From assembly GCA_031460175.1 (NCBI GenBank), contig JAVKGW010000001.1:469738-533737 (forward strand): a stretch of DNA of 64,000 nucleotides, read 5' to 3'. The DNA comes from Candidatus Sysuimicrobium tengchongense. GTDB lineage: Bacteria > Sysuimicrobiota > Sysuimicrobiia > Sysuimicrobiales > Sysuimicrobiaceae. Positions 10,948 through 26,140 of this stretch are shown one piece after another (positions within the stretch are counted from its first letter, which is position 1; every line of letters begins with the position of its first letter). A program made the position numbers and the translations under genes. Below the pieces are notes generated by a model. The model made no database searches. It saw nothing but the letters and a program-made list of their open reading frames with translations, and was not told where the DNA came from.

Positions 10948-11037
10948 GGAGGGGTGCCAGAGTGGTTGAATGGGGCGGTCTTGAAAACCGCTAGGACCGA
11001 GAGGTCCTCGGGGGTTCGAATCCCTCCCCCTCCGCCA
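10948..11037 (+). tRNA. tRNA-Ser(UGA): tRNA-Ser (anticodon UGA), class II with long variable arm, CCA encoded
   Basis: Hand-folded cloverleaf. Acceptor GGAGGGG/CCCCTCC, anticodon stem GCGGT/ACCGC with loop CTTGAAA, variable arm GGACC-GAGA-GGTCC, T-arm GGGGG-TTCGAAT-CCCTC, discriminator G plus CCA. Confidence 0.9.
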
Positions 11038-11404: not shown

Positions 11405-11432
11405 CCCCACGAAGTCTTCGGACTTCGTGGGG
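11405..11432. repeat. perfect 12-bp-stem palindrome inside the IS3 remnant (copy 1)
   Basis: CCCCACGAAGTC-TTCG-GACTTCGTGGGG. Confidence 0.85.
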
Positions 11433-11899: not shown

Positions 11900-11926
11900 C
11901 CCCGTGAAGTCGGAGACTTCACGGGG
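11900..11926. repeat. perfect 12-bp-stem palindrome inside the IS3 remnant (copy 2)
   Basis: CCCCGTGAAGTC-GGA-GACTTCACGGGG. Differs from copy 1 by a compensated AC/GT swap in both arms. Confidence 0.85.
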
Positions 11927-12116
11927 TGGCTTCAGGATCTCCCGCTCCTCCCGCAGGATCCGCACTTCCCGCCGATACGGAGGTCTGCTCTTCGGCATCG
12001 TGGACTCCTTTCCTGAGGCTCTTGCCTCTCAGTCTTAGGGTGTCCACGAAATCGGGGCAAGCCTCACATCCGTGATGTGTGTACACCATACCGGACAGTC
12101 CAGGACCGCAGGCCTA

Positions 12117-14122: not shown

Positions 14123-14237
14123 CGGATCCGTCAAAGTGCAGAAGCATGTCCCGGTGGGCTGTTCCTCTGACGGGCCTGCGCGTCTGGCTTCAAGGAACTC
14201 TTCTGCCCTCTGCCGAAGTAGACGCCCAAACCCCTCC

Positions 14238-14265
14238 GGCTCTTTACAGGCCGGGCCGGTTTCTC
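14238..14265 (+). promoter_or_regulatory. island-specific motif copy A (GGCTCTTTACAGGCC-N8-TTCTC) upstream of the sigma gene
   Basis: The same 15-mer plus N8 plus TTCTC is found on the minus strand at 16023-15996. It ends 10 nt before the sigma-factor GTG. Confidence 0.4.
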
Positions 14266-14275: not shown

Positions 14276-14821
14276 GTGGATCGGGAAGGGGGCCGGGAGG
14301 CCTTCGAACGGTACCGCAGGGGAGAGGCGGAGCCGGACGCACTTCTTGCCTGCCTGCAGGAGGAAGGCCGACACTGGCTGGCCGTCCACTTCCCCAACCT
14401 GCCCGAGGCCGACCGGGAAGACCTCCTCCAGCAGGCCCTGGTGGCCGCCTTCTATGCCCTCCCCCGTCTCCGCGGGGACTCCTACGACCACCTCCGCTCC
14501 TACTTCCTGACGACCCTCCGCTCGAAGGTCACGGATCACCACCGCCGGAGGTACAGGGAGGTGGTGGGACTCCCCGGGGCGTCCGATGGGCCTGCTGAAC
14601 TCCAACAGGAACTCCCGGCACAGGAGCCGTCCGGGTTCGAGGAAGTGGAGCTCCTGATAGACCTCGCCCGGGTGCTTTCTCCGGAGGAGTACCGGGTGGC
14701 CCGGCTCAAGATGGAGGGCTTCTCAGACCGGGACATCGCCCGCATCCTCAGGAAGGCCCCCGGTACCGTGGCCGCCCTCTGGCACCGGTCCCGTCGGAAG
14801 ATCCAGGGATTCGGCACGTGA
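14276..14821 (+). CDS. ECF-type sigma-70 family RNA polymerase sigma factor
   Basis: Region 2 (EDLLQQALVAAFYALPRLRGDSYDHLRSYFLTTLRSKVTDHHRR) and region 4 HTH (LSPEEYRVARLKMEGFSDRDIARILRKAPGTVAALWHRSRRKI). Confidence 0.75.
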   Translation: MDREGGREAFERYRRGEAEPDALLACLQEEGRHWLAVHFPNLPEADREDLLQQALVAAFYALPRLRGDSYDHLRSYFLTTLRSKVTDHHRRRYREVVGLPGASDGPAELQQELPAQEPSGFEEVELLIDLARVLSPEEYRVARLKMEGFSDRDIARILRKAPGTVAALWHRSRRKIQGFGT

Positions 14822-14849
14822 AGGCCTCGGCCTCGGAGGGTGCAGACCT

Positions 14850-15785
14850 CTACGGGGTCCCGAGCCCCCGGGGACTCCCACTACAGCCGGATCTCGGCCC
14901 GGGATCCCTGGGCACGTTCGGTCGTCCGAGAGCATGAGTCAGGGCCAACCGCGCCACTTCCAGATCCTCGGGATGCGGTCGAGCGGTGGTCAGGCGCTGG
15001 ACCCACAGCCCCGGCAGGAGGACGAACCGGATCCGGGGCTCCGCGAAAGCCGTGAGCCTGAGGATCTCCCCCCAGGCGAGGGCCCAAAGCTGGATCAGCC
15101 CCCTCGTTTGCCCTGTGACCACGTAGCCCGCGGCTAGGAACGGGAGGCTGGCGACCGCGAGAGTGGCCCCACACCGTGTGGAGATCGGCTCCGGCGGCTC
15201 GTCGGGGGCCAGTTCCGGTCCCACCACCACATGCTCGGCTCCGTGCAGCCGCCGCAACCGCTGTATTGCGGACCACGGGCCGGCCATCGCGCGTACAAGG
15301 CCGAGCAGCACAAGCCATCCCCCGACGGCGGGAAACAGCCACCACCGGAGTGAGAACGCCCTCGGCGGCCCCCACAACGTCCACGCACAGCCCACGCGCG
15401 GCCCCACCACCATGATTCCGGACGGGAAGCTCATGGCCCACCATACCCGGGGCTCCCATCCTTTTCGGTAGATGTGCCCGGCAGCGATCCCCGCGCCCCA
15501 GGCGCTCATGAACGCGTCCCACCACCCCGCCCCGGTCTCCGGCCATCCGTTAAGACCAGCCGCCAGCCCCCAGAGAACGCCAGCACCGCAGGCCAACCCG
15601 ATCCGAAAACGGCCCCACCAGAGCGTGGCCAACCAGACCGCGAGTGAGGCCAGGCCGACAGGCAGCGCCGCTGCGTTCGGGAGGAACCTCCCTACGCCCA
15701 ACGCCGCGAGGCAGGAGGCCGTGATACACGCGACCTTCCATGCTTCGCGTCCCGAAGCCCCGTGCCTCAGAGGTCGTCCGTCCAT
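14850..15785 (-). CDS. polytopic membrane protein with DUF1385-like C-terminal half
   Basis: LHGAEHVVV...STRCGATLAV...GLWVQRLTTARPHPEDLEVARLAL matches the DUF1385 HGAEHK / RCGT / LQ.LTT.EP..Q.EVA motifs. The N-terminal half is W/G-rich TM helices. Start assumed at ATG 15785; the track ORF extends to 16106. Confidence 0.5.
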   Translation of the reverse strand: MDGRPLRHGASGREAWKVACITASCLAALGVGRFLPNAAALPVGLASLAVWLATLWWGRFRIGLACGAGVLWGLAAGLNGWPETGAGWWDAFMSAWGAGIAAGHIYRKGWEPRVWWAMSFPSGIMVVGPRVGCAWTLWGPPRAFSLRWWLFPAVGGWLVLLGLVRAMAGPWSAIQRLRRLHGAEHVVVGPELAPDEPPEPISTRCGATLAVASLPFLAAGYVVTGQTRGLIQLWALAWGEILRLTAFAEPRIRFVLLPGLWVQRLTTARPHPEDLEVARLALTHALGRPNVPRDPGPRSGCSGSPRGLGTP

Positions 15786-15953
15786 GGTCCCAAAAGGACG
15801 CGCCTCCCGAAAAGCCGCACATCCCGTGGAGAACTTCCGGCCTCCTCCACCTGGCATGAGCCGCTCGGTCGCGAGGAGCAACCTCCCCGTCCTTCTTACC
15901 GGAAGGCCTTTGTCAGTAGCCTCTGTTTTTCGGAGACGTCCGGGCCGGCCGGG

Positions 15954-16023
15954 TTCTTTACAGGGCCCTGAAAAGTCGGTCCGGAAAGACCGGATGAGAA
16001 TTCCCCTGGGCCTGTAAAGAGCC
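15954..16023. promoter_or_regulatory. inverted pair of the CTTTACAGG(G)CC motif with nested TCCGG-AAAGA-CCGGA hairpin, in the divergent intergenic region
   Basis: TTCTTTACAGGGCC (15954-15967) faces GGCCTGTAAAGAGCC (16009-23). The latter, plus TTCTC at 15996-16000 (minus strand), is motif copy B. Confidence 0.4.
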
Positions 16024-16092
16024 CGACCCCCGACGGGCGTCTCCACATTCGGAGGGCACTGTGCAAAACCATCTGGTTCGGGGAGGCGCCAC

Positions 16093-19000
16093 ATGGGACA
16101 CGCCAACCTGCGGCTGGTGCGGGAGGTCGCTGCCCGGATCCCGGACCCGAAAACCCGTTCGCAGATCCTGGGAGAGGTTGCCGGGATCCTGGGCAGGGCC
16201 GGTGCGCCCCAGGAGTTCGAGCAGGCTTTCGCGGAGGCCCTTCAGGCCTTGCGGGAGGCCGTCACGTCGAAGTTCTCCAGGGCCCTGACAAGATCTCGAC
16301 ATGGCCCGGCTGAACCCTCCGGAGACCTCGCCCCTTCGCCTGCGGAAGACCGGGACGAGGCGGACGACCTGGCTGATGAGGACGCAGACATGGAGTCCGA
16401 AGAGCCAGCACCAGACCTCGACCCACTCCAACTGCTCCCTACCGTGACCCGCGAACGGCTGAAGGCCGTGGAGGAAGCCGCGAGGTCAGGGGACGCGCGA
16501 CACCTGCAGGAGGCCCTGGACCTGGCACTGGTCCCTGTGCTCGAGCGGGACGCCCACGAGCGCGCCGCGGCCCTGGGAACCCTCGCCGGGGTCCTTCTGC
16601 GACTCGGCCGCCCCCAGGAGGCCGAGCGGCTCTTTGACGAAGCCCTGCGGGCCTACCGGGACATCCGCGGTATCCCCGGCCCCTGGGGGATTTACGGACA
16701 CACACAACTCCAACGACAGCGCCAGGTCATCGCCGTCTGGCGCCAGGCACTCCGGGAGCTGCTGCACGAAGGCGAGGCGGAGCGTATCCTGCGGTGGGTG
16801 ATCAGGGGTTCCGACCCCGACTTCAACCCTCTGCTCAAGGAATGCGCTTACCCGTTGGCACGTGCCGGGAAGCTGCACCTCCTCCTCGAGCACCTCCCGG
16901 ACCTGGACACGTTCCGGGACACCATCGCGGCGCTCGCCCGTTCCGGCCATCTCCCCGAGATCTCCCTCGCGGTCAACGCTCTGTGTACCCGACCCCACGT
17001 GTTGTCCGGAACGCCTCTCAACAACCTCCTCCCGCGGCTCGCGCAACTGACATCCATACTCGCCGAACTGGGCCTCCACGAGGAAGCGGAGCGGCTTTCC
17101 CAGCTCGGCCAACGCCGGCTCCTGGCGGCCGCCCGAGCTTTCCTGTCGGAGCACGCCTCGAGCCGTCAACCTCCCTCCCTGCCCGAGTTCGCCCTCCTTG
17201 AGGAGGACCCGCCGCCTCCGCACAAACAGGAGGAGATGGAGCAACATGAGGCACAAGAGCCCGAGATGTGGTTCCAGAAGGCAGAAAGGGCCGTGGAAGT
17301 GCTGGAAGAGGCCTTCGACTTGACCGAGTGGCTCTGCGCCAGCGGGCTGTCCGGGGTGGCCGCAGCCATTCTCGATGCCGTCGAGGACTTTCTCCTCTTC
17401 CTGGAGGAGGAGATGGTGGAGGAGGATCTTGGCGACTCGGCAGAGCTGCTCGTCCGTGCCGTCGCCAACCTGGCGGCGGCCGGTCGCGTGAGAGACGCCG
17501 TGCGACTTCTGGACCACCTTTTCCAAACCGCCGAACACGTCTGGGAAGACTATCTCAAGTACGCCATCGCCGCGGACCCCGATGGCGGCTTCCACTCGTT
17601 CCTGGAAGTCCTGCAAAAGCGCTGTTCGGACGTCGTAAGGGCCTTCCTGGACGCGGGTGCACAAGAGGAAGCCCGGAGGTTCTTCCACGCCGTCAGCGCA
17701 GCCTGCGAGTTCGGCCCGGCAGAAGAACGCAAGGCCTTGGAGCCGGTTTTGCAGCAGCTGATGGAGAAAGGAGACCTGGAGGCGGCCCGGCAGGTCCTGT
17801 GGCTGGCCAGGCCCTCCGTGCGGCGCCAGCTGCTTTCCACCATCGCCGGCTTCGCCTCTTCAGGCACAGCGGAGTGGGCGATCCCGTTCGTGCAGGCCGC
17901 GATGCGGGCGGCCGTGAGAGCCGTGTTCGGGCCGGACAAGATTCTTCTTCCTCGATCGCCGCTCGATGTCGAGGAAGAACCCTGGGAGCGGCCAACCGGG
18001 CGGAAGCGCTCTAGCGTCTGGTTGCCGGCAGATCTCCGCTCGCACATCCGAGGGATCGCTTCAGGGTCGGGATCGGACTTGTGGGTCGAGGAGGCCGCGC
18101 TGGCAGCCACCGCCTGCTGGTCCGACGAGGCCCTCGCCGGGTGCGTCGAGGGGCTGGGAAGCCTCGGCCGCTTTGGGGAGGCCCTGGTCCTCTCGTCCGG
18201 CATCTCTGACGTGCCGACCCGTTTCCGGGTCCTGAACGGCCTTCTCTCCCGGATGGAGCAGGAAGGCTACCTGAGCGAGGTCGAGCAGCACGCGGAGTCG
18301 GAGTTCGACCCGGAAACCCGCGCCGTGCTCCTCGCGGCCATCGGGGATCGCCTCCGGGCGACCGGGCAGACCGAAGAGGCCCGGGCCAGATTCCGGGAAG
18401 CCCTCGAAGCTGCTGAGACGGCGGGCCGGTCTGCGGTGCTGGCCCAGGTCGTCCGCGCCGCGGCCGAGCTGCTCCCGGATGCCTCCGAACGGTGCCTGAG
18501 CTCCGTCAGGGGGATCCCGCGCCCCGAGGCCCGGTGCCAACGCCTTTTGGATCTCGCAGTTCCGTCCGCGCAACTCGGCCTGTGGGACATCGTGCGGGAG
18601 GCCATCGAGGTCGGAGTGGATGTCTACGATGAGGGATGGCCCGACTGGGGCGAGCTGGGGAGGAAGCTCGGGGCCGCTGTGGCCTGCACCGGTTCTGCGG
18701 ACGGGATCATCCAACTCCTCAAGACCGTAGCGGGCTGCCTCAGGTTCGTAGACTCCCCGGAGATCGGAGCGCACGAACTCGTCGTCGGTATCTCCGAGGC
18801 TGTGGCCTGGGAGGCCATCCGGGAAGGCGCCCCCGGGGACCTCGTCGAAGCCATGCTGGGGGAACTGAGCGCCTTCCCCCCTTACGCCTCGCTGATGGCC
18901 CTGGTGGGGCTGGCTTCCGTGTATACGCAGGCAGGGCGAGGGGAGGACGCGAACCGCATTCTCACCCAGATCACCGAGGTGGTGGACTCGGCGTTTGCCG

Positions 19001-19707
19001 AGGGCGTAGAAGAATGGGAGGAAGACGCGTGGCAGGGCGCGGTGGGTTACTTGCTCGACGTCGGGATGTTTGACCTCGCTGCCCGAATCGCGGAGACGCT
19101 GGGGGATCCCGACTCGGCCGGCGAGGCGCGAAACCTGGCGGAGTCCGCGCGTCTGCTGCGCTCCGGCGAGCCGGAAGAAGCTGCCCAAAGTCTGCAGAAC
19201 CTGGTTCGCCGGCAGCAGCGCCAAGTCATGACGGCGGTTTTGAGGGAAGGGGAGGCCGACCGGGTGCTGACCGTGGCGAGGCGGCTCGGGGGCGAGGCTC
19301 TGGCGGAAATCGCGGCCTCCGTCGCGCGCCGACTGGTAGGGGAAGGCCGGCTGCAGGAGGCCAGCGCTCTGGTCGGGGAGGTCGAGGACGGCCTGCGACG
19401 AGCAGAGCTCTGGTTGGAGATCGCACAAGCGGCCGCCCGGGATGGGAATCCCGCAGACGAGTACTTCCGGAGAGCCCTGCAGGAGGGACAGGGGGCGGGG
19501 CAGACCTCCCGCCAGCCGGGGCGCCGGAAGGCGGCGGAGCACACGGTTCTGCGGATAGTACAAGCCGCAGCCCGGTCCCTGGGGCCGGAACAGGCCGCAG
19601 GCCTCGCCGCCCTCGTCAAGAACAGGACGTTGCAGGCCAGAGCCCTGTGCTCCATCGCTTTGGCTTCCGCAGGATCCCTCCCACGCCGGGCCGGACGCCA
19701 AGCATGA
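16093..19707 (+). CDS. 1204-aa all-alpha helical-repeat (TPR/HEAT-like) protein, function unknown
   Basis: ATG 16093 lies 6 nt after GGGGAGG. No NTPase or catalytic motif visible. Acidic linker (PAEDRDEADDLADEDADMESEEPAPDLDP). Repeated A/L/E/R-rich helix-hairpin texture throughout. Confidence 0.7.
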   Translation: MGHANLRLVREVAARIPDPKTRSQILGEVAGILGRAGAPQEFEQAFAEALQALREAVTSKFSRALTRSRHGPAEPSGDLAPSPAEDRDEADDLADEDADMESEEPAPDLDPLQLLPTVTRERLKAVEEAARSGDARHLQEALDLALVPVLERDAHERAAALGTLAGVLLRLGRPQEAERLFDEALRAYRDIRGIPGPWGIYGHTQLQRQRQVIAVWRQALRELLHEGEAERILRWVIRGSDPDFNPLLKECAYPLARAGKLHLLLEHLPDLDTFRDTIAALARSGHLPEISLAVNALCTRPHVLSGTPLNNLLPRLAQLTSILAELGLHEEAERLSQLGQRRLLAAARAFLSEHASSRQPPSLPEFALLEEDPPPPHKQEEMEQHEAQEPEMWFQKAERAVEVLEEAFDLTEWLCASGLSGVAAAILDAVEDFLLFLEEEMVEEDLGDSAELLVRAVANLAAAGRVRDAVRLLDHLFQTAEHVWEDYLKYAIAADPDGGFHSFLEVLQKRCSDVVRAFLDAGAQEEARRFFHAVSAACEFGPAEERKALEPVLQQLMEKGDLEAARQVLWLARPSVRRQLLSTIAGFASSGTAEWAIPFVQAAMRAAVRAVFGPDKILLPRSPLDVEEEPWERPTGRKRSSVWLPADLRSHIRGIASGSGSDLWVEEAALAATACWSDEALAGCVEGLGSLGRFGEALVLSSGISDVPTRFRVLNGLLSRMEQEGYLSEVEQHAESEFDPETRAVLLAAIGDRLRATGQTEEARARFREALEAAETAGRSAVLAQVVRAAAELLPDASERCLSSVRGIPRPEARCQRLLDLAVPSAQLGLWDIVREAIEVGVDVYDEGWPDWGELGRKLGAAVACTGSADGIIQLLKTVAGCLRFVDSPEIGAHELVVGISEAVAWEAIREGAPGDLVEAMLGELSAFPPYASLMALVGLASVYTQAGRGEDANRILTQITEVVDSAFAEGVEEWEEDAWQGAVGYLLDVGMFDLAARIAETLGDPDSAGEARNLAESARLLRSGEPEEAAQSLQNLVRRQQRQVMTAVLREGEADRVLTVARRLGGEALAEIAASVARRLVGEGRLQEASALVGEVEDGLRRAELWLEIAQAAARDGNPADEYFRRALQEGQGAGQTSRQPGRRKAAEHTVLRIVQAAARSLGPEQAAGLAALVKNRTLQARALCSIALASAGSLPRRAGRQA

Positions 19708-20813
19708 AGGGGCGACAGAACGGAGACCAACTGAGGCAGGCCCTGTTGAGGTCCAAACCCGGCCCGGGCCCGGATTGTCCGGACGACCTTACCGTGTTCC
19801 ACGCGGCCGCGGGGCTGCTCTCCCATGCCGAGCAGCAGGCCTTCGAGCGCCACCTAGAGGGGTGTCTAGCCTGCCGGGACCGGGAACTCGAGACCCGCAA
19901 GCTCCTGCACTTCGAGCAGCACCGCATCCCCTACCGGATCGACCCTCAGACCGGCCGGATTCGGAGGGTTTCCCGGATCCGCCTCCTGCTCTCGGCCCTG
20001 CACCCTCAAGCGCTGCTCCGCGGGCTCACAGACCTGGCTCCCAAGCGCTTGGCCATCGCCCTCGCCTTTCTGCTCGTGGCCCTCCTGGCTTGGTCCCTGG
20101 CCTCCCCGGCCCTGGCCCGCTCGCCGGCGGTCCTGGCCGCAGCAAAACAGGTGCCCGTGGTCCGCTGGTTGCTCCCGGCCTCGGTGCGGGAGTACCTGGA
20201 GGCGAGCCTGCTCGCGGACCGGATGGGCAGGCTCCCCCTCGGAGGGAAGGAATGGCAGGACCTGGCCGCCCGGGCAGAGGGGCACCTCAAGAGGGCCCTC
20301 CGGATGGATCCCGCCTACGTGGACGCACACATCCTGCTGGGAGACCTGTACCTCGATCGCTCCTCCGTCAACCCGGCTTCCCCCGCTTCCCGCAGGTACC
20401 TGGACCTCGCCGAGGCCGCCTACAGACGGGCCCTCATCCACGATCCCCAGCACATCCAGGCCCGCTACGGTTTGGCGGAGGTCTACGCCACCAGGGGGGA
20501 ATTCGGCAAGGAACTGGAGCAGTACAACGCCATCCTGCGGCAGGACCCGAACGAGCACGATGCCCGACTGTTCCGGGGCTGGGTGTACCTGGAGCGGGGG
20601 GACTACGCGAGGGCCGCGGAGGATTTCCGGGAGCTCCTGAAGGAGGATCCCACGGACTGGGAGGCGGCGTGGGCGCTGGGGCTTGCGCGGGCCTTCGAAG
20701 GAAAGCCCCGGGAGGCCCTCCGGGAGGTGGAGCGCCTGAAGCCCCTCAACCCCGGCCGCGCGCGCCTGCTGCAGCACATCCTGCGGGCCCTGGAGAAGGC
20801 GGGCAGGAGGTAG
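19704..20813 (+). CDS. ZAS-type anti-sigma factor-like protein: zf-HC2, one TM helix, extracytoplasmic TPR repeats
   Basis: H-x3-C-x2-C (HLEGCLAC, 19851-19874), TM LAIALAFLLVALLAWSLA, and C-terminal TPR units (AYRRALIHDPQHIQARYGLAEVY, ILRQDPNEHDARLFRGWVYLERGDYARAAEDF). The ATG overlaps the upstream stop (ATGA at 19704-19707). Confidence 0.7.
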   Translation: MKGRQNGDQLRQALLRSKPGPGPDCPDDLTVFHAAAGLLSHAEQQAFERHLEGCLACRDRELETRKLLHFEQHRIPYRIDPQTGRIRRVSRIRLLLSALHPQALLRGLTDLAPKRLAIALAFLLVALLAWSLASPALARSPAVLAAAKQVPVVRWLLPASVREYLEASLLADRMGRLPLGGKEWQDLAARAEGHLKRALRMDPAYVDAHILLGDLYLDRSSVNPASPASRRYLDLAEAAYRRALIHDPQHIQARYGLAEVYATRGEFGKELEQYNAILRQDPNEHDARLFRGWVYLERGDYARAAEDFRELLKEDPTDWEAAWALGLARAFEGKPREALREVERLKPLNPGRARLLQHILRALEKAGRR

Positions 20814-20820
20814 CAGGACC

Positions 20821-21357
20821 ATGAAGGCCCACCACCGCACCGCTTCAGCTGCCTTGGCGCTTTTTCTCCTGTTCCTGGGAAGCGCCTCGCCCCTGCTGGC
20901 CGGAGGTCGCCTGCTCCTGTTCAGCGACGACGAGCACCGTCGGTTTCTAGGGTGCCTGAGCTGTGGCCGGTTCGACCCGGACTCCGTGCACAACCAGCTC
21001 AGTCGCTACGGGAGCCGCTATGCCCTCTACAGCATCTGGAACCCTGACGGCCCGTACAGATTCCCTTACTCCACCTACAGTGCCTGCAACCCATTCGTCA
21101 CGCGGCCTCCCGTCGTGCTGGGCGAGCACTGGACCTGCTACGGCCGTCTCACCCTCATCCTCTACCTTCCGGACGCCATCCGTGAGTCCGCGGCGGTCAC
21201 CTGGCTGCTTGGTGGCGTGCCGCAGTGGGTGAGGGACAGCGATGGACATCTGTGCAGCCCTTGGGTTGCCACGGCGACGGATGCGGGGATGTTCCAGGCA
21301 AGGAGGAGCGGATCGCTCCGAAAAGTGTTAATAAAAGTAAATAAAGTAAAAGGGTAG
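20821..21357 (+). CDS. secreted Cys-containing protein, function unknown
   Basis: Signal peptide (AALALFLLFLGSASPLLAG). The mature part has five Cys (FLGCLSCGRFDPDS...YSACNPF...WTCYG...HLCSPW). AT-rich K/V-rich tail. Confidence 0.6.
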   Translation: MKAHHRTASAALALFLLFLGSASPLLAGGRLLLFSDDEHRRFLGCLSCGRFDPDSVHNQLSRYGSRYALYSIWNPDGPYRFPYSTYSACNPFVTRPPVVLGEHWTCYGRLTLILYLPDAIRESAAVTWLLGGVPQWVRDSDGHLCSPWVATATDAGMFQARRSGSLRKVLIKVNKVKG

Positions 21358-21380
21358 GCGGAGGTGAGTCGTCTCGTACC

Positions 21381-24300
21381 ATGCGGACAGAAAGCGTACC
21401 GGCCCTCGCCGCTCTGACGTCCGACCAGCTCAGCCAGGTGACTCAATACCTCAACGCGTGGAAGCGCTCTCTCCTCGATCTCTCGGCTCGCAATCGGCTG
21501 CTTCATTTCCACAAAGGCCTGGCGACCCGTGTCCGCCTCGACCGCCCGGGGGTCCATGACCTCTACATGGCGCTCGCCGTCGGGGAGCGGTCGCTGGCTT
21601 TCCCCGGGCCACGAGGCATTGCCGTCGACGACCTTGAGCTCCAAGAGGCGGTCGACCCTTCGGATCGCGTCGCTCCAGGCGACCTGGAGACCGCTCCGCC
21701 GGTCAAGACCCTGAAGGACCTCAAGGACCTCTACCGAAAGCTCGAGCGCCTGCGCCGCGGAACGCGCACGATCTACGAAGAGCAGGGGGTCCACACGCTC
21801 TTCCTCGCGCTCGGTCTGCTGCAATGGCGAGAGGCGGACCACTCTGAAGAGACGATCGATAGCCCTCTTCTGCTCGTTCCGGTCCGTTTGGAGCGAACCG
21901 AGGAGCGCTACCTGCTCTGTCCGCACGAGGACGACGTCGAGGTCAACCCCGCTCTTGCTTACCGGTTGCAGCGCGATTTCGGCTTGACCCTGCCAGGGCT
22001 CGACGGCAATGCCGAGGAGCAGGCTCCCGCTGTGGCACTCGACCGGTTCTTCGGGGAAGTTCGAGATCTCGCGGCCCGCAAGGGCTGGACCGTCGTAGAC
22101 GAGGCATGGCTGGCGCAGTTCGCCTTCTACAAGCTCCCGATGTACCGGGACCTCGAGGCGCCCGGGGTGGCGGAAAGTGCGGCCACGCATCCCGTGGTGG
22201 CCGCACTGTGCGGCTTGCGGGAGCGGTCCGAGCCAGGGCCCGTCGACGTGCGAAGGGCCGAGGAGGAGTATGCCCGGCCGGAGCTATTCCCGGTCCTTGA
22301 CGCCGACTCAAGCCAGCTGGAAGTGATGGAGCAGGTCCGCCAGGGCAGGACCATTGTGGTGCAAGGGCCGCCTGGCACGGGAAAGAGCCAGACCATCGTC
22401 AACGTCATCGCCCAGGCCCTGCGCGAGGGGAAGAGAGTGCTGTTCGTGAGCGAGAAGAGGGCCGCTCTCGAGGTGGTCTACGAGCGATTGGAAAAGCTAG
22501 GTCTGGCCCGCCTGTGTCTCGACCTCCACAGCAGCCGGGCCAGCCGAAAGGCCGTCGTCGAAGACCTCATGGGCAGCCTGGACGACCTGAGGGCCTGGCA
22601 GGACCGAAGCGACCGGGCTGCTTTCGAGCAGTACCAGCGGCTGAGGAGTCAACTCGACGAGTATGTCCATGAATTGCACCGGCCCCGAGATCGTCAGGGA
22701 CGCAGCGCGTTCCAGGTCCATGGAACCCTGGCCCGCTTGCGGGACGTACCGCTGGTGACGGCACGACTTCCCTTCGAACGGATACTTGACGTCGAGCCTG
22801 ACCAAGAGGCTCGGGTCATCGAGTTGCTCGGACGGATCGCCAGGCTTGGTGTGTGGGACCACCAGCGAACCCACCCATGGAAGGACGCTGCACCGTCCGA
22901 CGATTTCGCGCCGATTCCCGACGCGATGGCGTCCCTTTGCAGCACGCTGAACCGAGTTTACGACAGCCTGCTGGCCCTTGCCGGCGAGATGGCCGAGTTG
23001 ACGGGGGTGCGGCCTGCCACGGCGCGGGAGGTGGAAGAACACCTCGATCTCGTGCGGCATCTGGCAAAAAGACCGTTGGTGACCATCCGGGAGTCATGGC
23101 TCAGCGCCGAGGCGGGGCAGCGAGCGTCGCTGGTACGATTCGCACGGGAGCTCGGCGAACGCATGGAACTGAGAAGGCAAGGCCTCGCATACCTTGAAAG
23201 CCTGGGCGTGGATCCGTCAGCCGACGCCGGCGAGTTCCGGTTGCTGTACGGGATGCTGGACCAGGCTGAGAAAGGCTCGTGGTACCGCCGGTTGGTCACC
23301 GAGTGGAAGGCGCAGCGGCGGCTGGGGCAGCTCTTGCGCAGGAAGCTGCGGCGCCGAGAGGCGGCAGCCGTGGTTCGGGCGCTGTTCGCCGTGCAGGATG
23401 CAGAGGCGTGGGTAACGGCCAACGGCGACCGCATCCGTACCGAACTGGGGCTGGAGCCTGCCCCGGATTGCCTGAACCGGACGGCCGATGCCACCGTGGA
23501 AGCCGTCGTGTGGACGGCCTCCACCGTGGAGGCGGCGGGAGGTCAGTTGCCTGAGGCACTTCGGCGAGCGATACTCGCCGATGACCCGGCGGCGATCCGG
23601 GCCAGGGCAGAGGCTCTGCTCGAACGGGCGTCATCCGCTCTCCTTGCGTTGGGGAGCGCGACCGCCGACGAGCACTTCGTCCGACTGTTCCCGAAGGGCG
23701 TCGGCGGGTACTCGTGGCACGATTGGCCTTTGGAGGAGGCCCGGGAAACCACTGTGACCTGGGAACGGGAAGCGGGCCGTTTGCCGGAGTGGCTCGAGCA
23801 CCTGCGGCAGATGCGGGCTGCGGAAGAAGCCGGGCTGTCCCCGTTTCTGACTGCTTGTCAGGCTGCGAGGGTTCCTGCGCGCCGTCTGCCCGATGCCTTT
23901 AAACGGGCCTACTTCACACAGTGGTTGCGGCGTGCGTACGAGAGTTCTGAGGTGTTGCGATCCTTCCAGGGGTACGAGTGGGAGGAGCTGCGCCGCAGGT
24001 TTCAAGAGCTGGATCGGCGCCTCCAGCAAGAGGCTGTAAAGGCGACCTTCGAGATGATAGCGTCGCGCCTGCCCGACCCCCTTCCGGCCGGCGAGTTGAC
24101 CGTCCTCTCTCGTGAGGCGAATAAGAAGCGAAGGCATCTGCCCCTTCGGAAGCTGTTCCCGCAGATCCCCAATCTGCTGTTGGCCGTCAAGCCGTGTCTC
24201 ATGATGAGTCCCCTCTCCGTGGCGACGTACTTACCCTGGCAGGTCTTCTCGTTCGACCTGGTCATCTTCGACGAGGCGTCGCAGCTGTTGCCGGGTGATG

Positions 24301-25466
24301 CCATCGGGGTGCTGTTGCGGGGCCAGCAGGCGGTGATCTTCGGGGACAAGAAGCAGATGCCGCCCACTGATTTCTTCCAGGCTCACGTGGAGGGCGACGA
24401 GGAAGAACCCGACGCGCAGGACTACGAGAGCATCCTCGACATCGCCAGCACCTATTTCCCTGGGCCGATGCTCAAGTGGCATTACCGAAGCCGCGACGAG
24501 CGACTGATCGCGTTCTCGAACAAGCATTTCTACGGGAGAACACTGGTGACGTTTCCGTCTCCCCGGCTGGACGGGGTTGACACAGGGATCTCCTTCGTCT
24601 ACGTCCCCGACGGCGTCTACGGGCGGGGAGGCTCGCGCACCAACGTGGTTGAAGCCAGACGGGTGGCCGAGCTTGTGCTGGAACACTGCCGCACCCGGCC
24701 GGACCTATCGCTCGGGGTCATCACCCTGAGCATCGAACAGCGGGATGCCGTCGAAGAGGCGCTGCGGCGGCTCATGAGGGAGCATCCGGAGCTGGTCTTG
24801 CCCCAAAAAGAGGAGTTCTTCGTCAAGAATCTGGAGACCGTGCAGGGAGACGAGCGCGACGTCGTCATCCTGGATATCGGATACGGCCCGTCGGAGCCCG
24901 GCGGGACCCCGTCGCTTCAGTTTGGGCCACTCAACCGAAGCGGAGGGGAACGGCGGTTAAACGTCGCCATCACCCGGGCCCGGTATCGGATGATTGTGGT
25001 CTCCTCGATGCAACCAGAGCAGTTGAAGGGCATCGTGCATCAGGCGCGCTGGGAAGGCCCCAAGTTGCTCGCGGAGTACCTCGAGTATGCCCAGCGTGGC
25101 GGTATGGGTGCCGGAGTGGATGGCACAGGGCAGCCGGAGAGCGAGTTCGAGGAAGCAGTCCGGGACGCGCTGGTCGCGCGGGGGTATCAGGTCGACTGCC
25201 AGGTTGGAGTCTCAGGCTACCGTATCGACCTGGCTGTGAGAGACCCGGATGCGCCGGGGCGTTACATCGTGGGGATCGAATGCGACGGGGCGACCTACCA
25301 TTCGGCGCGCACGGCCCGTGACCGTGACCGCATCCGGCAGATGGTGTTGGAATCCCTCGGGTGGCACATCGTCCGCGTGTGGTCCACGGACTGGATCCGT
25401 GACCCGGACAGGGTCACCGACCGGCTGGTGAAGTACGTTGAGGACGTTCGATGGAGAGACGGTTGA
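21381..25466 (+). CDS. DUF4011-type SF1 (Upf1/DNA2-like, AAA_11/AAA_12) helicase fused to a C-terminal Vsr/DUF559-like PD-(D/E)xK nuclease domain
   Basis: N-terminal LLDLSARNRLLHF / TLFLALGLLQW / SPLLLVPVRL (DUF4011). Walker A GPPGTGKS (22365-22388). FDLVIFDEASQ (Walker B/motif II). VGDKKQMPPT-like FGDKKQMPPTDFF. WHYRSRDERLI. GDERDVVI, LNVAITRAR (motif VI). C-terminus YRIDLAV...VGIECDGATYHS...GWHIVRVWSTDW (about 25146-25400). Confidence 0.85.
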   Translation: MRTESVPALAALTSDQLSQVTQYLNAWKRSLLDLSARNRLLHFHKGLATRVRLDRPGVHDLYMALAVGERSLAFPGPRGIAVDDLELQEAVDPSDRVAPGDLETAPPVKTLKDLKDLYRKLERLRRGTRTIYEEQGVHTLFLALGLLQWREADHSEETIDSPLLLVPVRLERTEERYLLCPHEDDVEVNPALAYRLQRDFGLTLPGLDGNAEEQAPAVALDRFFGEVRDLAARKGWTVVDEAWLAQFAFYKLPMYRDLEAPGVAESAATHPVVAALCGLRERSEPGPVDVRRAEEEYARPELFPVLDADSSQLEVMEQVRQGRTIVVQGPPGTGKSQTIVNVIAQALREGKRVLFVSEKRAALEVVYERLEKLGLARLCLDLHSSRASRKAVVEDLMGSLDDLRAWQDRSDRAAFEQYQRLRSQLDEYVHELHRPRDRQGRSAFQVHGTLARLRDVPLVTARLPFERILDVEPDQEARVIELLGRIARLGVWDHQRTHPWKDAAPSDDFAPIPDAMASLCSTLNRVYDSLLALAGEMAELTGVRPATAREVEEHLDLVRHLAKRPLVTIRESWLSAEAGQRASLVRFARELGERMELRRQGLAYLESLGVDPSADAGEFRLLYGMLDQAEKGSWYRRLVTEWKAQRRLGQLLRRKLRRREAAAVVRALFAVQDAEAWVTANGDRIRTELGLEPAPDCLNRTADATVEAVVWTASTVEAAGGQLPEALRRAILADDPAAIRARAEALLERASSALLALGSATADEHFVRLFPKGVGGYSWHDWPLEEARETTVTWEREAGRLPEWLEHLRQMRAAEEAGLSPFLTACQAARVPARRLPDAFKRAYFTQWLRRAYESSEVLRSFQGYEWEELRRRFQELDRRLQQEAVKATFEMIASRLPDPLPAGELTVLSREANKKRRHLPLRKLFPQIPNLLLAVKPCLMMSPLSVATYLPWQVFSFDLVIFDEASQLLPGDAIGVLLRGQQAVIFGDKKQMPPTDFFQAHVEGDEEEPDAQDYESILDIASTYFPGPMLKWHYRSRDERLIAFSNKHFYGRTLVTFPSPRLDGVDTGISFVYVPDGVYGRGGSRTNVVEARRVAELVLEHCRTRPDLSLGVITLSIEQRDAVEEALRRLMREHPELVLPQKEEFFVKNLETVQGDERDVVILDIGYGPSEPGGTPSLQFGPLNRSGGERRLNVAITRARYRMIVVSSMQPEQLKGIVHQARWEGPKLLAEYLEYAQRGGMGAGVDGTGQPESEFEEAVRDALVARGYQVDCQVGVSGYRIDLAVRDPDAPGRYIVGIECDGATYHSARTARDRDRIRQMVLESLGWHIVRVWSTDWIRDPDRVTDRLVKYVEDVRWRDG

Positions 25467-25933: not shown

Positions 25934-26140
25934 TCAGGATCCGCGGCGCTGCGCCCCTTTCGAGGGCTTGCCTTCTTCTTTGCCCTCCAGCCAACGGAGG
26001 ACCGCCTGACGCCGGACGCGGATCGGCCGCCCCCACCGGACGACCCCGGGAACCAGCCCGCGCCGAATCGCGGCGTACAGGGCCTGGCGGCTGACGCCGA
26101 GGAGCGCCGCTAACGCACGAACCGTCATCAACTCGCCCAT
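25934..26140 (-). CDS. excisionase/AlpA-like helix-turn-helix DNA-binding protein
   Basis: MTVRALAALLGVSRQALYAAIRRGLVPGVVRWGRPIRVRRQAVLRWLE is the typical Xis/MerR-superfamily winged HTH. Located at the distal end of the island. Confidence 0.65.
   Translation of the reverse strand: MGELMTVRALAALLGVSRQALYAAIRRGLVPGVVRWGRPIRVRRQAVLRWLEGKEEGKPSKGAQRRGS

What the first reader, a model, noticed from the sequence alone, without database searches (positions are those of the whole stretch)
14276..25466. Candidate undescribed system: ECF sigma + giant helical-repeat protein + ZAS/TPR anti-sigma + secreted Cys protein + DUF4011 helicase-nuclease
Seen in the sequence: four plus-strand genes are packed as one likely transcript. 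There is an ATGA start/stop overlap at 19704-19707, a 7-nt gap (20814-20820) and a 23-nt gap (21358-21380). The genes are as follows. (i) A 1204-aa all-alpha TPR/HEAT-like protein with an acidic linker and no NTPase or catalytic motif I can recognise. (ii) A protein with an N-terminal H-x3-C-x2-C zinc anti-sigma motif (19851-19874), one TM helix and periplasmic-side TPRs. (iii) A signal-peptide protein with five Cys. (iv) A 1361-aa SF1 helicase with a PD-(D/E)xK nuclease. An ECF-type sigma factor lies 5 kb upstream (14276-14821). Sigma and anti-sigma are normally adjacent and co-transcribed. Here they are separated by a divergent DUF1385-like membrane protein and the giant gene, and the anti-sigma is translationally coupled to the giant protein. 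Inference: this could be an envelope-sensing sigma/anti-sigma switch wired to a nucleic-acid-degrading effector, on a mobile island. That fits an anti-phage or anti-plasmid defence cassette, or a novel ECF signalling module. I know of no named defence system (Nhi, Mokosh, Hachiman, Gabija, Zorya, Druantia, Avs and others) with this gene set.
Basis: inference. Interest (0 to 1): 0.85.

Follow-up and report, generated by a model that had tools for sequence, protein, structure and literature searches.

The report
Sigma/anti-sigma sensor heading swappable defence genes
The five genes are not one fixed new defence system but a patchwork: a conserved envelope-sensing sigma/anti-sigma module, split here by a species-specific insertion, sits in front of a slot that holds a different known anti-phage system in each related genome, which suggests, but does not prove, a portable sensor that switches on whatever defence gene is plugged in behind it.

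Summary
The proposed five-gene system is not conserved. The region is a mosaic on a 15.8-kb island at a tRNA-Ser gene.

1. In ten related lineages the ECF sigma and the ZAS-TM-TPR anti-sigma are adjacent. They usually face a divergent small protein and a secreted DegS/HtrA-like protease.
2. Here 4.9 kb (14808-19731) was inserted between them. It carries a weak DUF1385-like gene and the 1204-aa all-alpha protein. That protein has no homologue among 1.84 billion cluster representatives.
3. The helicase-nuclease belongs to a known single-gene anti-phage family (PADLOC PDC-S37; ProA/Hhe-like) and stands alone elsewhere.

A bipartite ECF-type motif (TGTAAAGAR-N15/16-CGTCT) occurs three times in the 64-kb window, with none expected by chance. 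The copies point at the protease operon, the DUF1385-like gene and the giant gene. Also, the position downstream of the anti-sigma holds a different defence cargo in each relative: Hma, BREX, DruE/DpdE-like helicases and other SF1 helicase-nucleases, always on the same strand. The closest precedent is DdvS/DdvA of Myxococcus. A regulatory link to the cargo is inferred, not shown.

The parts
10948..11037 (+). tRNA-Ser(UGA). Its 3' part (10985-11039) is the left copy of the island's direct repeat (attL-like).
   Evidence: ARAGORN, Rfam tRNA 55.6 bits, direct repeat D2
11088..11975 (-). IS3-family element remnant (rve fragment at 11093-11590), next to the tRNA
   Evidence: Pfam rve_2/rve_3. 78-91% DNA identity to copies in L008 and L009
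12117..12542 (-). Signal-anchored OB-fold protein, the last gene of the divergent operon
   Evidence: Weak Pfam OB-fold hit, hydrophobic segment 19-53, 80% identical homologue in L004
12521..13723 (-). Secreted trypsin-like (S1C, DegS/HtrA-like) serine protease. It has no PDZ domain and carries a roughly 185-aa C-terminal domain of unknown fold. It is the candidate site-1 protease for the anti-sigma.
   Evidence: Pfam Trypsin_2 93.6 bits. NCBIfam HhoA/HtrA 102.7 bits and DegS 70 bits, both below their equivalog cut-offs. Signal-like segment 7-34 and a GNSGGP motif. Conserved in L004, L006 and L022, with a remnant in L013
13727..14080 (-). Small 117-aa cytoplasmic protein (weakly DUF4258-like). 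It is the first gene of the divergent operon and the most constant partner of sigma and anti-sigma.
   Evidence: Homologues at 52-86% identity in L004, L006, L008, L016, L019, L021/L025 and L022. DUF4258 E 0.0087, and 6e-4 for the paralogue, both below cut-off
14220..14252 (-). Promoter-like motif copy 1 (GGCC-TGTAAAGAG-N15-CGTCT), pointing at the small-protein/protease operon
   Evidence: Conserved in the alignment of sigma upstream regions
14276..14821 (+). ECF-type sigma factor. Its last few codons were replaced at the insertion breakpoint (about 14807).
   Evidence: TIGR02937 49.7 bits against 42.9, Pfam Sigma70_r2, 47-81% identical orthologues directly upstream of the anti-sigma in relatives, breakpoint
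14808..19731 (.). Lineage-specific DNA of 4924 nt that replaces about 98 nt of the sigma/anti-sigma spacer seen in L004. It contains the DUF1385-like gene, two motif copies, the giant gene and the first 9 codons of the anti-sigma.
   Evidence: blastn homology to L004 ends at 14807 and resumes at 19732. Junction alignment
14850..15788 (-). DUF1385-like membrane protein ORF. MAG annotations call only 194-219 aa of it. The coding signal is weak and it may be decaying.
   Evidence: Pfam DUF1385 E 1.8e-8, partial. Codon score 0.08-0.15. Absent from all relatives
15934..15966 (-). Promoter-like motif copy 2 (TGTAAAGAA-N15-CGTCT), pointing at the DUF1385-like gene
   Evidence: Forms inverted repeat I2 with copy 3
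16009..16042 (+). Promoter-like motif copy 3 (GGCC-TGTAAAGAG-N16-CGTCT), 50 nt upstream of the giant gene's ATG. In relatives the equivalent copy lies directly before the anti-sigma gene.
16093..19707 (+). Orphan 1204-aa cytoplasmic all-alpha repeat protein with an acidic disordered linker at about 62-110
   Evidence: Only itself is found among 5.8e9 and 1.84e9 proteins. Pfam TPR_12 only. AF2 shows about 60 helices at pLDDT 52.7. Best codon score in every window. GGGGAGG Shine-Dalgarno before the ATG
19704..20813 (+). Zinc-binding (ZAS) anti-sigma factor with one TM helix and an extracytoplasmic TPR sensor. Its start overlaps the giant gene's stop (ATGA) and it has lost the GGAGAG Shine-Dalgarno seen in relatives.
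20821..21357 (+). Secreted CxxC protein. Its first ~137 residues are conserved with a homologue that follows an anti-sigma remnant in L009/L010. Its C-terminus is different DNA from 21233 on.
21346..21374 (+). Weak partial match to the promoter motif (GTAAAAGG-N16-CGTCT), ending 6 nt before the helicase ATG. It lies in an AT-rich junction.
   Evidence: The relaxed pattern gives 4 hits against 0.05 expected and no spurious hit in 22 loci. It was noticed post hoc, and a PWM trained on relatives scores it below 8 bits
21381..25466 (+). DUF4011 / SF1 helicase / MTES_1575 nuclease. It is a member of the single-gene anti-phage family PDC-S37 (ProA/Hhe-like) and is the cargo in this island.
   Evidence: PADLOC PDC-S37 1223 bits full length, Hhe 640 bits. 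NCBIfam ProA 1177.5 bits and Hhe 861.4 bits, both below their equivalog cut-offs. Pfam domains. Stand-alone homologues
25934..26140 (-). HTH_17 (excisionase/AlpA-like) small DNA-binding protein
   Evidence: Pfam HTH_17 43.6 bits
26825..26879 (+). Right copy of the tRNA-Ser 3'-end direct repeat (attR-like), marking the end of the island. IS110-like remnants lie just before it (about 26260-26750).
   Evidence: Direct repeat D2. Sequence read

Best explanation
The region is a mosaic of three layers on a degenerate 15.8-kb island at tRNA-Ser.

Layer 1 is a conserved sensory module. An ECF sigma factor and its cognate membrane anti-sigma are transcribed divergently from a small DUF4258-like protein, a secreted DegS/HtrA-like protease and an OB-fold protein. 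The anti-sigma has a cytoplasmic zinc-binding sigma-trapping domain, one TM helix, a very conserved juxtamembrane segment and a fast-diverging extracytoplasmic TPR sensor.

Layer 2 is a lineage-specific 4.9-kb insertion carrying the DUF1385-like gene and the orphan 1204-aa helical-repeat gene. It split sigma from anti-sigma. The insert keeps copies of the module's own ECF-type promoter. The giant gene now sits between that promoter and the anti-sigma gene. The anti-sigma lost its own ribosome-binding site and is translated by coupling to the giant gene.

Layer 3 is a stand-alone anti-phage helicase-nuclease (PDC-S37/ProA/Hhe-like). It occupies the variable cargo position downstream of the anti-sigma.

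Proposed mechanism (inferred):
1. An extracytoplasmic signal is sensed by the TPR domain.
2. The co-encoded protease cuts the anti-sigma near the conserved juxtamembrane segment.
3. Intramembrane proteolysis then frees the sigma.
4. The sigma transcribes from the GTAAAG-N17-CGTCT promoters. This raises expression of the protease operon and of the giant/anti-sigma/Cys-protein unit.
5. Transcription reads through into whatever defence cargo lies behind, here the helicase-nuclease, possibly helped by a weak promoter copy of its own.

Shown: the gene content, the insertion, the motif and its placement, and the variable defence cargo. Inferred: that the motif is this sigma's promoter, that the protease cuts the anti-sigma, and that the cargo is under sigma control.
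For: Sigma and anti-sigma are partners:
- They are adjacent in L004, L006, L008, L016, L019, L020, L022 and L026 (gap of about 40-50 nt where measured).
- They overlap in L021 and L025.

The insertion:
- Homology to L004 breaks at 14807 and 19732.
- The giant protein is an orphan but has host-like codon usage.

The promoter motif:
- TGTAAAGAR-N15/16-CGTCT gives 3 hits in 64 kb, with 0 in 100 shuffles.
- Each copy points at a downstream gene. Relatives have two copies each, one toward the small-protein operon and one directly before the anti-sigma.
- Between copies within a genome the -35 block is 91% identical, the -10 block 84% and the spacer only 42%. That is the pattern of a bipartite promoter.
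- The shape matches ECF promoters with an AAc -35 and a cGT -10, as used for DdvS (PMC6061681).

Anti-sigma anatomy:
- The ZAS residues are invariant.
- The juxtamembrane segment 134-170 is 73-100% conserved, while the TPR part falls to 40-48% identity. This holds even for the paralogue in the same MAG.
- The AF2 model has pLDDT 84.

The protease has an S1C domain, DegS/HtrA-like, with a signal-like segment.

Variable cargo downstream of the anti-sigma, same strand:
- HmaA/B/C in L004.
- DruE-like plus DpdE-like in L013.
- SF1 helicase with MTES_1575 nuclease in L019 and in L021/L025.
- HmaC plus a GajA/Old-like gene in L022.
- BrxE/A/B and a further large gene in L026.
- PDC-S37 in the window.
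- Gaps to the cargo are as small as 4-34 nt (L004) and 7-23 nt (window).
- No terminator signal above chance was found.

Precedent: DdvS/DdvA control a CBASS plus CRISPR island (PMC6061681, PMC11506125).
Against: - No copy of the strong motif lies upstream of the cargo in any relative, so control of the cargo would need read-through.
- Gaps of 220-390 nt with GC-rich hairpins exist in L013, L019 and L022 and could terminate transcription.
- The helicase-proximal motif match is weak and was found post hoc.
- L006/L012 has housekeeping genes downstream.
- Defence genes cluster on islands anyway, so adjacency alone is weak evidence.
- The lineages are related, all come from one narrow clade of uncultured thermophiles, and are not independent samples.
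- The sigma gene itself is not preceded by the motif in the sense direction, unlike most autoregulated ECF sigmas.
- The distant lineage L021 has a housekeeping-type TTGACA/TAAAAT promoter and no module motif.
- The protease is missing from the stretches held for several loci (L008, L019, L021/L025).
- The function of the giant protein is unknown.
- There are no expression or phenotype data at all.
Confidence: 0.6

Rival explanations
1. Hotspot only. The sigma/anti-sigma/protease module is an ordinary envelope-stress or element-maintenance module carried on an island. Defence genes accumulate next to it because that position is a permissive integration hotspot. The cargo uses its own promoters and has no regulatory link to the sigma.
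For: - No strong motif lies upstream of cargo in relatives.
- Intergenic gaps of 220-390 nt with GC-rich hairpins occur in L013, L019 and L022.
- L006/L012 has housekeeping genes downstream.
- Conserved genes flanking variable defence hotspots are well known, for example cDHS1 of P. aeruginosa, which is flanked by a DUF4011 gene (PMC10250203).
- Helicase homologues work in unrelated contexts.
Against: - The first downstream gene is on the same strand in all lineages examined.
- Gaps are very tight in the window (7 and 23 nt) and in L004 (4 and 34 nt).
- Nuclease-type genes (PLD, Endonuc_Holl, SbcCD-like) also sit inside the divergent, motif-driven operon in L004, L022 and L021/L025.
- The inserted giant gene acquired or kept the module promoter.
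- A DdvS/DdvA precedent exists.
Confidence: 0.3
2. Sigma, giant protein, anti-sigma, Cys protein and helicase-nuclease form one dedicated, undescribed defence system whose parts need each other.
For: - The four genes are tightly packed on one strand, with an ATGA overlap and short gaps.
- The module promoter motif lies upstream of the giant gene, and a weak copy lies before the helicase.
Against: - The giant protein has no homologue in 1.84e9 representatives.
- Ten related anti-sigma loci lack the giant gene, the DUF1385-like gene and this helicase.
- The Cys protein co-occurs with the anti-sigma only once, and without a helicase.
- The helicase family is a single-gene system and is found alone elsewhere.
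- DNA homology breakpoints at 14807, 19732, 20839 and 21232 show separate origins for the pieces.
Confidence: 0.05
3. The repeated motif is not a promoter. It could be an operator for another regulator, or inverted-repeat recombination sites flanking the sigma gene (an invertible or mobile cassette). The latter could also explain insertions at that spot.
For: - In relatives the two copies flank the sigma gene in inverted orientation.
- L020 has two direct copies about 215 nt apart.
- The window insertion sits exactly at this site.
Against: - Only two short blocks at a fixed distance are conserved, while the spacer has diverged to 42% identity. That is typical of -35/-10 elements and not of recombination sites.
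- Every copy points toward a gene start 16-140 nt away.
- No invertase or integrase gene is present in any locus.
Confidence: 0.05

Closest known systems
[quoted passage not shown]
   Same: - An ECF sigma paired with a single-pass anti-sigma.
- The anti-sigma's small cytoplasmic domain is a zinc-binding (ZAS) three-helix bundle.
- The extracytoplasmic part contains TPRs.
- It sits next to anti-phage systems.
- The promoters are of the AAc/cGT ECF type.
- The proposed activation is by site-1 cleavage near the TM helix followed by RseP-type cleavage.
   Different: - DdvA has a roughly 900-residue periplasmic TPR-CHAT domain, which may be its own site-1 protease. Here the anti-sigma has only about 230 extracytoplasmic residues (TPR, no CHAT), and a separate secreted S1C serine protease is co-encoded.
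- DdvS has dedicated promoters in front of each defence operon. Here the strong motif is found only in front of module genes, and the cargo would depend on read-through.
- The cargo here is swappable between lineages.
- The phylum is different (CSP1-3/Sysuimicrobiota-like MAGs, labelled Armatimonadota at NCBI).
- No experimental data exist.
PDC-S37 (PADLOC candidate single-gene system), ProA (NCBIfam NF058533) and Hhe (NF042953; HheA in DefenseFinder): DUF4011 helicase-nuclease anti-phage proteins
   Same: - The window helicase matches the PDC-S37 model over its full length (1223 bits).
- It has the DUF4011, SF1 (AAA_11/AAA_12) and MTES_1575 nuclease architecture.
   Different: - It scores below the NCBIfam equivalog cut-offs for ProA (1177.5 against 1500) and Hhe (861.4 against 2000).
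- It is shorter than those models (1361 aa against about 1800-1900 positions).
- It is therefore a relative in the same family, not an equivalog.
Sigma-E/RseA/DegS/RseP regulated proteolysis in E. coli. This comparison draws on established knowledge and on NCBIfam DegS hits.
   Same: A membrane anti-sigma whose extracytoplasmic part is presumed to be cut by a trypsin-fold S1C protease, which releases an ECF sigma.
   Different: - The protease here has no PDZ domain and has an unknown C-terminal domain.
- It is encoded next to the sigma under the module's own promoter motif.
- The anti-sigma is ZAS-type with TPRs, unlike RseA.
Defence-associated transcriptional regulators that precede many different systems: BrxR/CapW-type WYL regulators and CapH/CapP. 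This comparison is from my own knowledge and was not tested here.
   Same: A conserved regulatory gene set is found upstream of diverse, swappable defence systems.
   Different: Those are cytoplasmic DNA-binding repressors that sense DNA damage or similar signals. This module would sense outside the cytoplasm and act through an alternative sigma factor.

Membership tests
ECF (group 4) sigma-70 family | Only sigma-2 and sigma-4 regions are present, and the protein matches the ECF superfamily model above its cut-off | tested here: met
   TIGR02937 49.7 bits against a cut-off of 42.9. Pfam Sigma70_r2 29.9 against 24. Sigma70_r4_2 18.8, below 25.7. Length 181 aa
ECF (group 4) sigma-70 family | A cognate anti-sigma is encoded next to it | tested here: met
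   Not adjacent in the window, where it is 4.9 kb away. Adjacent or overlapping in the ten related loci that hold a sigma homologue
ZAS (zinc-binding) anti-sigma factors | An H-x3-C-x2-C motif with an upstream Cys/His ligand in a small N-terminal helical domain | tested here: met
   H50, C54 and C57, plus C25 and H33, are invariant in 12 homologues. zf-HC2 24.1 bits against 22.2. AF2 helices 28-35, 41-53 and 55-72
ZAS (zinc-binding) anti-sigma factors | Binds zinc and sequesters its sigma | not testable with these tools
   Needs biochemistry or a complex prediction. No multimer tool was available
DdvA-type anti-sigma (TPR-CHAT) | A large periplasmic TPR-CHAT (caspase-like) domain with a His-Cys dyad | tested here: not met
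   Only TPR families match residues 189-355. The protein is 369 aa. The AF2 model is all-helical after the TM helix. Foldseek returns only TPR proteins
DdvS/DdvA-type regulated defence island | Sigma-dependent promoters in front of the defence operons | tested here: inconclusive
   The strong motif lies only before module genes and the giant gene. A weak post-hoc match lies before the helicase. No such match was found before cargo in relatives
DdvS/DdvA-type regulated defence island | Defence systems adjacent to the sigma/anti-sigma pair | tested here: met
   PDC-S37, Hma, BREX, DruE/DpdE-like, SF1 helicase-nucleases and GajA/Old-like genes lie downstream in 8 or more of 11 lineages
PDC-S37 / ProA / Hhe single-gene anti-phage helicase-nucleases | Full-length match to the family model | tested here: met
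   PADLOC PDC-S37 1223.4 bits, residues 18-1357 against model positions 4-1342 of 1550
PDC-S37 / ProA / Hhe single-gene anti-phage helicase-nucleases | Reaches the NCBIfam equivalog cut-off for ProA or Hhe | tested here: not met
   ProA 1177.5 bits against 1500. Hhe 861.4 bits against 2000
PDC-S37 / ProA / Hhe single-gene anti-phage helicase-nucleases | Protects against phage | not testable with these tools
   Needs a phage challenge experiment
DegS/HtrA (S1C) site-1 proteases | A trypsin-fold protease domain with the GNSGG serine motif, and export from the cytoplasm | tested here: met
   Trypsin_2 93.6 bits. HtrA and DegS models match residues 52-210. GNSGGP motif and N-terminal hydrophobic segment
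DegS/HtrA (S1C) site-1 proteases | C-terminal PDZ domain or domains | tested here: not met
   No PDZ hit. The C-terminal 185 aa match no Pfam family even at E up to 5
tRNA-integrated genomic island | A direct repeat of the tRNA 3' end at the far border | tested here: met
   10985-11039 and 26825-26879 are identical over about 55 nt
tRNA-integrated genomic island | An integrase gene | tested here: not met
   No integrase family among the called genes of the island in L001-L003 or in my Pfam scans. Only HTH_17 and IS remnants were found

The most novel reading that the evidence does not exclude
A portable sensory cassette acts as an extracytoplasmic phage or envelope-damage sensor. It consists of a small protein, an ECF sigma and a ZAS-TM-TPR anti-sigma, often with a secreted DegS-like protease. 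It would transcriptionally gate whichever defence system is inserted behind the anti-sigma gene: BREX, Hma, Druantia/Dpd-like helicases or helicase-nucleases. That would make it a plug-in, sigma-controlled defence slot. It would be the second and architecturally distinct example after DdvS/DdvA. In this genome it would additionally have captured an orphan 1204-aa helical-repeat protein that is now translationally coupled to the anti-sigma.
Probability: 0.35. Interest if true: 0.75.

Novelty: new variant of a known kind. Interest (0 to 1): 0.55.

Why it matters
How bacteria decide when to switch on costly defence systems, and whether they can sense phage attack at the cell envelope, is largely open. 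[quoted passage not shown]

A second, unrelated-looking module in a different, uncultured phylum would suggest that envelope-level sensing through alternative sigma factors is a recurring way to regulate defence islands. This module has a separate protease and a swappable cargo slot holding BREX, Hma, helicase-nucleases and other systems.

It also gives concrete testable parts: a defined promoter motif, a conserved juxtamembrane segment as a candidate cleavage site, and a fast-evolving TPR sensor.

If the link is not real, the result is still useful. [quoted passage not shown]

Tried and rejected
- **Homologues of the giant protein.** The word-based search and the exhaustive phmmer search on residues 1-1200 found only the protein itself and single-repeat TPR hits.
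- **Structure of the giant protein.** Single-sequence AF2 gave pLDDT 52.7. That is too poor for a fold search, so none was run.
- **Foldseek and PDB profile search with the anti-sigma.** Both returned only generic TPR proteins, so no structural link to DdvA or other anti-sigma domains could be shown.
- **A first promoter idea.** GGAAC-N16-GAAGTAGAC upstream of sigma turned out to be mostly the reverse complement of the real conserved motif.
- **PWM scan for the motif upstream of cargo.** Nothing above 8 bits beyond the module sites was found in the loci scanned. The helicase-proximal site rests only on a relaxed pattern chosen after seeing it.
- **Terminator scans.** Counts equal chance and no hairpin plus T-run lies between the anti-sigma and cargo. 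This is uninformative for a GC-rich organism.
- **Recombination site at the cargo breakpoint after the anti-sigma stop.** No conserved sequence was found.
- **Wider collections.** The genome-contig scan returned only one locus, metagenome contigs six and viral contigs none.
- **Antisense ORFs inside the giant gene** (400 and 546 aa). Rejected on codon usage and because the plus-strand ORF is unbroken.
- **Literature on 'PDC-S37'.** No paper was found.

Full report
**1. Checking the observation**

- sigma 14276-14821(+)
- a minus-strand DUF1385-like ORF 14850-15788
- the 1204-aa ORF 16093-19707(+)
- the 369-aa anti-sigma 19704-20813(+)
- the 178-aa protein 20821-21357(+)
- the 1361-aa helicase 21381-25466(+)

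The ATGA overlap and the 7-nt and 23-nt gaps are read directly from the sequence.

Pfam and NCBIfam confirm the domain calls:
- The sigma passes the ECF superfamily model (TIGR02937, 49.7 bits against 42.9).
- The anti-sigma passes zf-HC2 (24.1 against 22.2) and has TPRs at 189-355.
- The helicase carries DUF4011, AAA_11/AAA_12 and the MTES_1575 PD-(D/E)xK nuclease domain.

Hydrophobicity gives one TM segment in the anti-sigma (110-139) and signal-like N-termini in the 178-aa protein and the protease.

The giant ORF has the best host-like codon usage in every 300-nt window. Its mean score is 0.35, against 0.33 for the helicase. It is preceded by a GGGGAGG Shine-Dalgarno sequence. A single-sequence AF2 model is poor (pLDDT 52.7). 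It predicts about 60 helices and a disordered acidic stretch at 62-110.

The 'mobile island' is real. tRNA-Ser(UGA) lies at 10948-11037, and about 55 nt of its 3' end (10985-11039) is repeated at 26825-26879. This delimits a 15.8-kb island. The island holds an IS3 remnant, an HTH_17 gene and IS110-like debris. No integrase was found.

**2. What the parts are**

*The helicase.* It matches the PADLOC model PDC-S37, a single-gene candidate system, over its full length (1223 bits), and matches Hhe over its C-terminal part. NCBIfam names the nearest families as anti-phage protein ProA (1177.5 bits, below the 1500 cut-off) and DUF4011 anti-phage protein Hhe (861.4 bits, below 2000). None of the other five proteins hits any PADLOC defence model at a meaningful level. 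Homologues of the helicase on archaeal and proteobacterial plasmids stand among unrelated genes.

*The giant protein.* It is an orphan. A word-indexed search of 5.8 billion clusters and an exhaustive phmmer search of 1.84 billion cluster representatives both return only the protein itself and weak single-repeat TPR hits.

*The source.* The exact helicase is found only on contigs of two MAGs (GCA_031458615.1 and GCA_031458735.1) and one Logan assembly, all with the same gene order. The only relative in the GTDB representative set is 'Candidatus Sysuimicrobium calidum'. The source is therefore a CSP1-3/Sysuimicrobiota-like organism, labelled Armatimonadota at NCBI.

**3. Comparative genomics dissolves the five-gene system**

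The anti-sigma has full-length homologues at 41-86% identity. I fetched their neighbourhoods and mapped the window's proteins onto them.

- In every lineage that holds a sigma homologue, the sigma gene lies immediately upstream of the anti-sigma. The gap is about 40-50 nt where measured, and the two genes overlap in L021 and L025.
- Upstream and divergent lies a small protein homologous to window 13727-14080. It is usually followed by the secreted trypsin-like protease.
- None of these loci has the DUF1385-like gene, the giant gene or this helicase.

DNA alignment places the breaks precisely. Homology to L004 runs over 12129-14807 and 19732-20839. So 4924 nt in the window replace about 98 nt in L004. 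The insertion changed only the last few codons of sigma and the first nine codons of the anti-sigma.

The 178-aa protein has just three homologues. One follows a frameshifted anti-sigma remnant in L009/L010. The homology there ends at window 21232, so the C-terminus of the 178-aa protein and the helicase are yet another piece of DNA.

A second, undisrupted copy of the module sits on another contig of the same MAG (L022). Its sigma is 80% identical to the window's and its anti-sigma 63%.

**4. A module-specific promoter-like motif**

Aligning the regions upstream of sigma revealed a conserved block. Read on the opposite strand, this block recurs between sigma and anti-sigma in the relatives.

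The motif is GGCC-TGTAAAGAG-N15/16-(G)CGTCT. In the 64-kb window, TGTAAAGAR-N15/16-CGTCT has exactly three matches, with none in 100 shuffles:
- 14220-14248(-), pointing at the small-protein/protease operon
- 15934-15962(-), pointing at the DUF1385-like gene
- 16013-16042(+), 50 nt before the giant gene's ATG

Most relatives have two copies, one toward the small-protein operon and one directly before the anti-sigma. The remnant loci L013-L015 keep one copy, and the distant L021 and L025 have none.

Between copies within a genome, the two blocks are 91% and 84% identical while the spacer is only 42% identical. That is the signature of -35 and -10 elements, not of a recombination site.

The shape (AAG-N17/18-CGT) fits the AAc/cGT ECF consensus that was used to find DdvS promoters with the query GTAAn16CGT (PMC6061681).

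Two consequences follow:
- The giant gene sits between the promoter that normally serves the anti-sigma and the anti-sigma itself.
- The anti-sigma has lost the GGAGAG ribosome-binding site seen in relatives and now starts inside the giant gene's stop codon.

A relaxed pattern, GTAAA-N18-20-CGTCT, finds a fourth site at 21346-21374, ending 6 nt before the helicase ATG. The expectation is 0.05 per window, and the pattern gives no spurious hit in 22 loci. However, I chose that pattern after seeing the site. The site lies in an AT-rich junction. A PWM trained on the relatives scores it below 8 bits. I treat it as suggestive only.

**5. The slot behind the anti-sigma holds different defence systems**

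| Lineage | Genes downstream of the anti-sigma, same strand |
|---|---|
| Window | PDC-S37 helicase-nuclease |
| L004 | HmaA/HmaB/HmaC |
| L013 | 1719-aa DruE-like and 938-aa DpdE-like helicases |
| L019 | 976-aa SF1 helicase with MTES_1575 nuclease |
| L021/L025 | 1743-aa SF1 helicase with MTES_1575 nuclease |
| L022 | HmaC, a GajA/Old-like gene, DUF1156 |
| L026 | BrxE, BrxA, BrxB and a further large gene |
| L008 | IS fragments, SNase, Dcm+Vsr, PLD, a helicase |
| L006/L012 | housekeeping genes only |

The three helicase-nucleases are only 28-31% identical to one another. They are separate acquisitions of a similar kind of cargo.

Nuclease-type genes also sit inside the divergent, motif-headed operon:
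- PLD and Endonuc_Holl in L004 and L022
- an SbcCD-like set in L021/L025

No intrinsic-terminator signal above chance separates the anti-sigma from its cargo. This is weak evidence in a GC-rich organism, and GC-rich hairpins do exist in the longer gaps.

**6. Anatomy of the sensor**

- The ZAS ligands (C25 or H33, with H50, C54 and C57) are invariant.
- The AF2 model built with 12 homologues has pLDDT 84.4.
- Its elements are a three-helix N-terminal domain, a TM helix at 113-131 and a TPR superhelix at 182-365.
- The most conserved part of the whole protein is the extracytoplasmic juxtamembrane segment 134-170, at 73-100% identity.
- The TPR domain falls to 40-48% identity, even in the same-MAG paralogue whose sigma-binding domain is 86% identical.

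This is what one expects of a constant cleavage or docking site combined with a fast-evolving sensor.

The co-encoded protease has an S1C (HtrA/DegS-like) domain with a GNSGGP motif and a signal-like segment. It has no PDZ domain and carries an unassigned 185-aa C-terminal domain.

**7. Most likely mechanism and rivals**

Best explanation (confidence about 0.6 overall):
- About 0.9 that the region is a mosaic and that sigma and anti-sigma are a split cognate pair.
- About 0.65 that the motif is this sigma's promoter.
- About 0.4-0.45 that the cargo is under its control.

In this model an extracytoplasmic signal leads the protease to clip the anti-sigma. Intramembrane proteolysis then frees the sigma. 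The sigma fires the GTAAAG/CGTCT promoters, and transcription runs through the anti-sigma into the defence cargo.

Rivals:
- The module merely flanks a defence hotspot, with no regulatory link to the cargo (0.3).
- The motif is an operator or a recombination site (0.05).

The role of the orphan giant protein is unknown. Its placement makes anti-sigma synthesis depend on its translation. Beyond that I can only speculate that it acts as a scaffold or modulator.

**8. Comparison with what is known**

The concept has a published precedent. DdvS/DdvA of Myxococcus xanthus is an ECF sigma with a ZAS transmembrane anti-sigma. Its periplasmic TPR-CHAT domain may self-cleave. [quoted passage not shown] My literature searches found no other characterised ECF-controlled defence island.

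The present module is not a DdvA family member, because it has no CHAT domain (tested, not met). It may work like one, with the protease supplied by a separate gene and a swappable cargo slot.

I therefore rate it a new variant of a known kind, with moderate interest (0.55). The five-gene system as proposed is not real. What lies underneath it is a testable second example of envelope-level sigma control of defence islands.

Noticed in passing
L022 (GCA_031458615.1 contig JAVKKC010000033.1), 4780-21104: The same MAG carries a second, undisrupted copy of the module. Its sigma is 80% identical and its anti-sigma 63% identical overall (sigma-binding domain 86%, TPR 48%), with near-identical promoter motifs. 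It is followed by HmaC, DUF7680, a GajA/Old-like gene and DUF1156. Cross-talk between the two sigma/anti-sigma pairs is likely.
   Followed up: partly
window 20103-20213 (anti-sigma residues 134-170): The extracytoplasmic juxtamembrane segment SPALARSPAVLAAAKQVPVVRWLLPASVREYLEA is the most conserved part of the anti-sigma family (73-100% identity). It is more conserved than the zinc-binding domain and is a candidate cleavage or docking site.
   Followed up: partly
L025 9414-11093 (protein P0012): A distant homologue of the anti-sigma carries an extra N-terminal domain of about 190 aa that matches MshEN (PF05157, T2SSE_N-like), a family I recall as c-di-GMP-binding. It is fused in front of the ZAS domain.
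   Followed up: no
L021 159-8071 and L025 838-8701, minus strand: In the most distant lineage the divergent arm has no protease. It instead encodes a small-protein homologue followed by 328-aa and 564-aa unknown proteins, DUF6717, SbcD and an SbcC-like ATPase (weak PADLOC mad3/mad8/LmuB hits). This looks like an uncharacterised defence-like operon.
   Followed up: partly
L020 438-466 and 653-680: Two direct copies of the promoter-like motif lie about 215 nt apart between sigma and anti-sigma. This is a small-scale parallel to the window's insertion at the same spot and suggests the site is prone to rearrangement.
   Followed up: no
window 10695-10820, inside ORF 10574-10888(-): Five tandem 21-nt units encode a 7-residue repeat in a small coiled-coil-like protein next to the tRNA-Ser. 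A homologue (60% identity) flanks the anti-sigma remnant in L009/L010.
   Followed up: no
L009 1-5376 and 9116-11997: The homologue of the 178-aa Cys protein sits after a frameshifted anti-sigma remnant. It lies before a Trypsin_2 protease fused to helical repeats that weakly resemble the giant protein's N-terminus (39% over 59 aa). A type III CRISPR-Cas locus (Cas10, Csm2, RAMP, Cas6, CARF) lies a few kb away.
   Followed up: partly
window 21320-21352: A strikingly AT-rich stretch (gttaataaaagtaaataaagtaaaag) in a 69% G+C genome lies at the junction between the Cys-protein gene and the helicase. It probably marks the edge of the imported helicase cassette.
   Followed up: partly
window 11088-11975 and about 26260-26750: An IS3-family remnant next to attL has 89-91% identical copies in L009. 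IS110-like fragments (the peptide MPYIAFDVHKHYTL and a Transposase_20-like piece) lie next to attR. No integrase is left in the island.
   Followed up: partly
window 14185-14200: A conserved AAGGAAC element lies upstream of the sigma gene on the sense strand. It overlaps the divergent promoter region. It might be sigma's own promoter, but the matching -10 is unclear.
   Followed up: no
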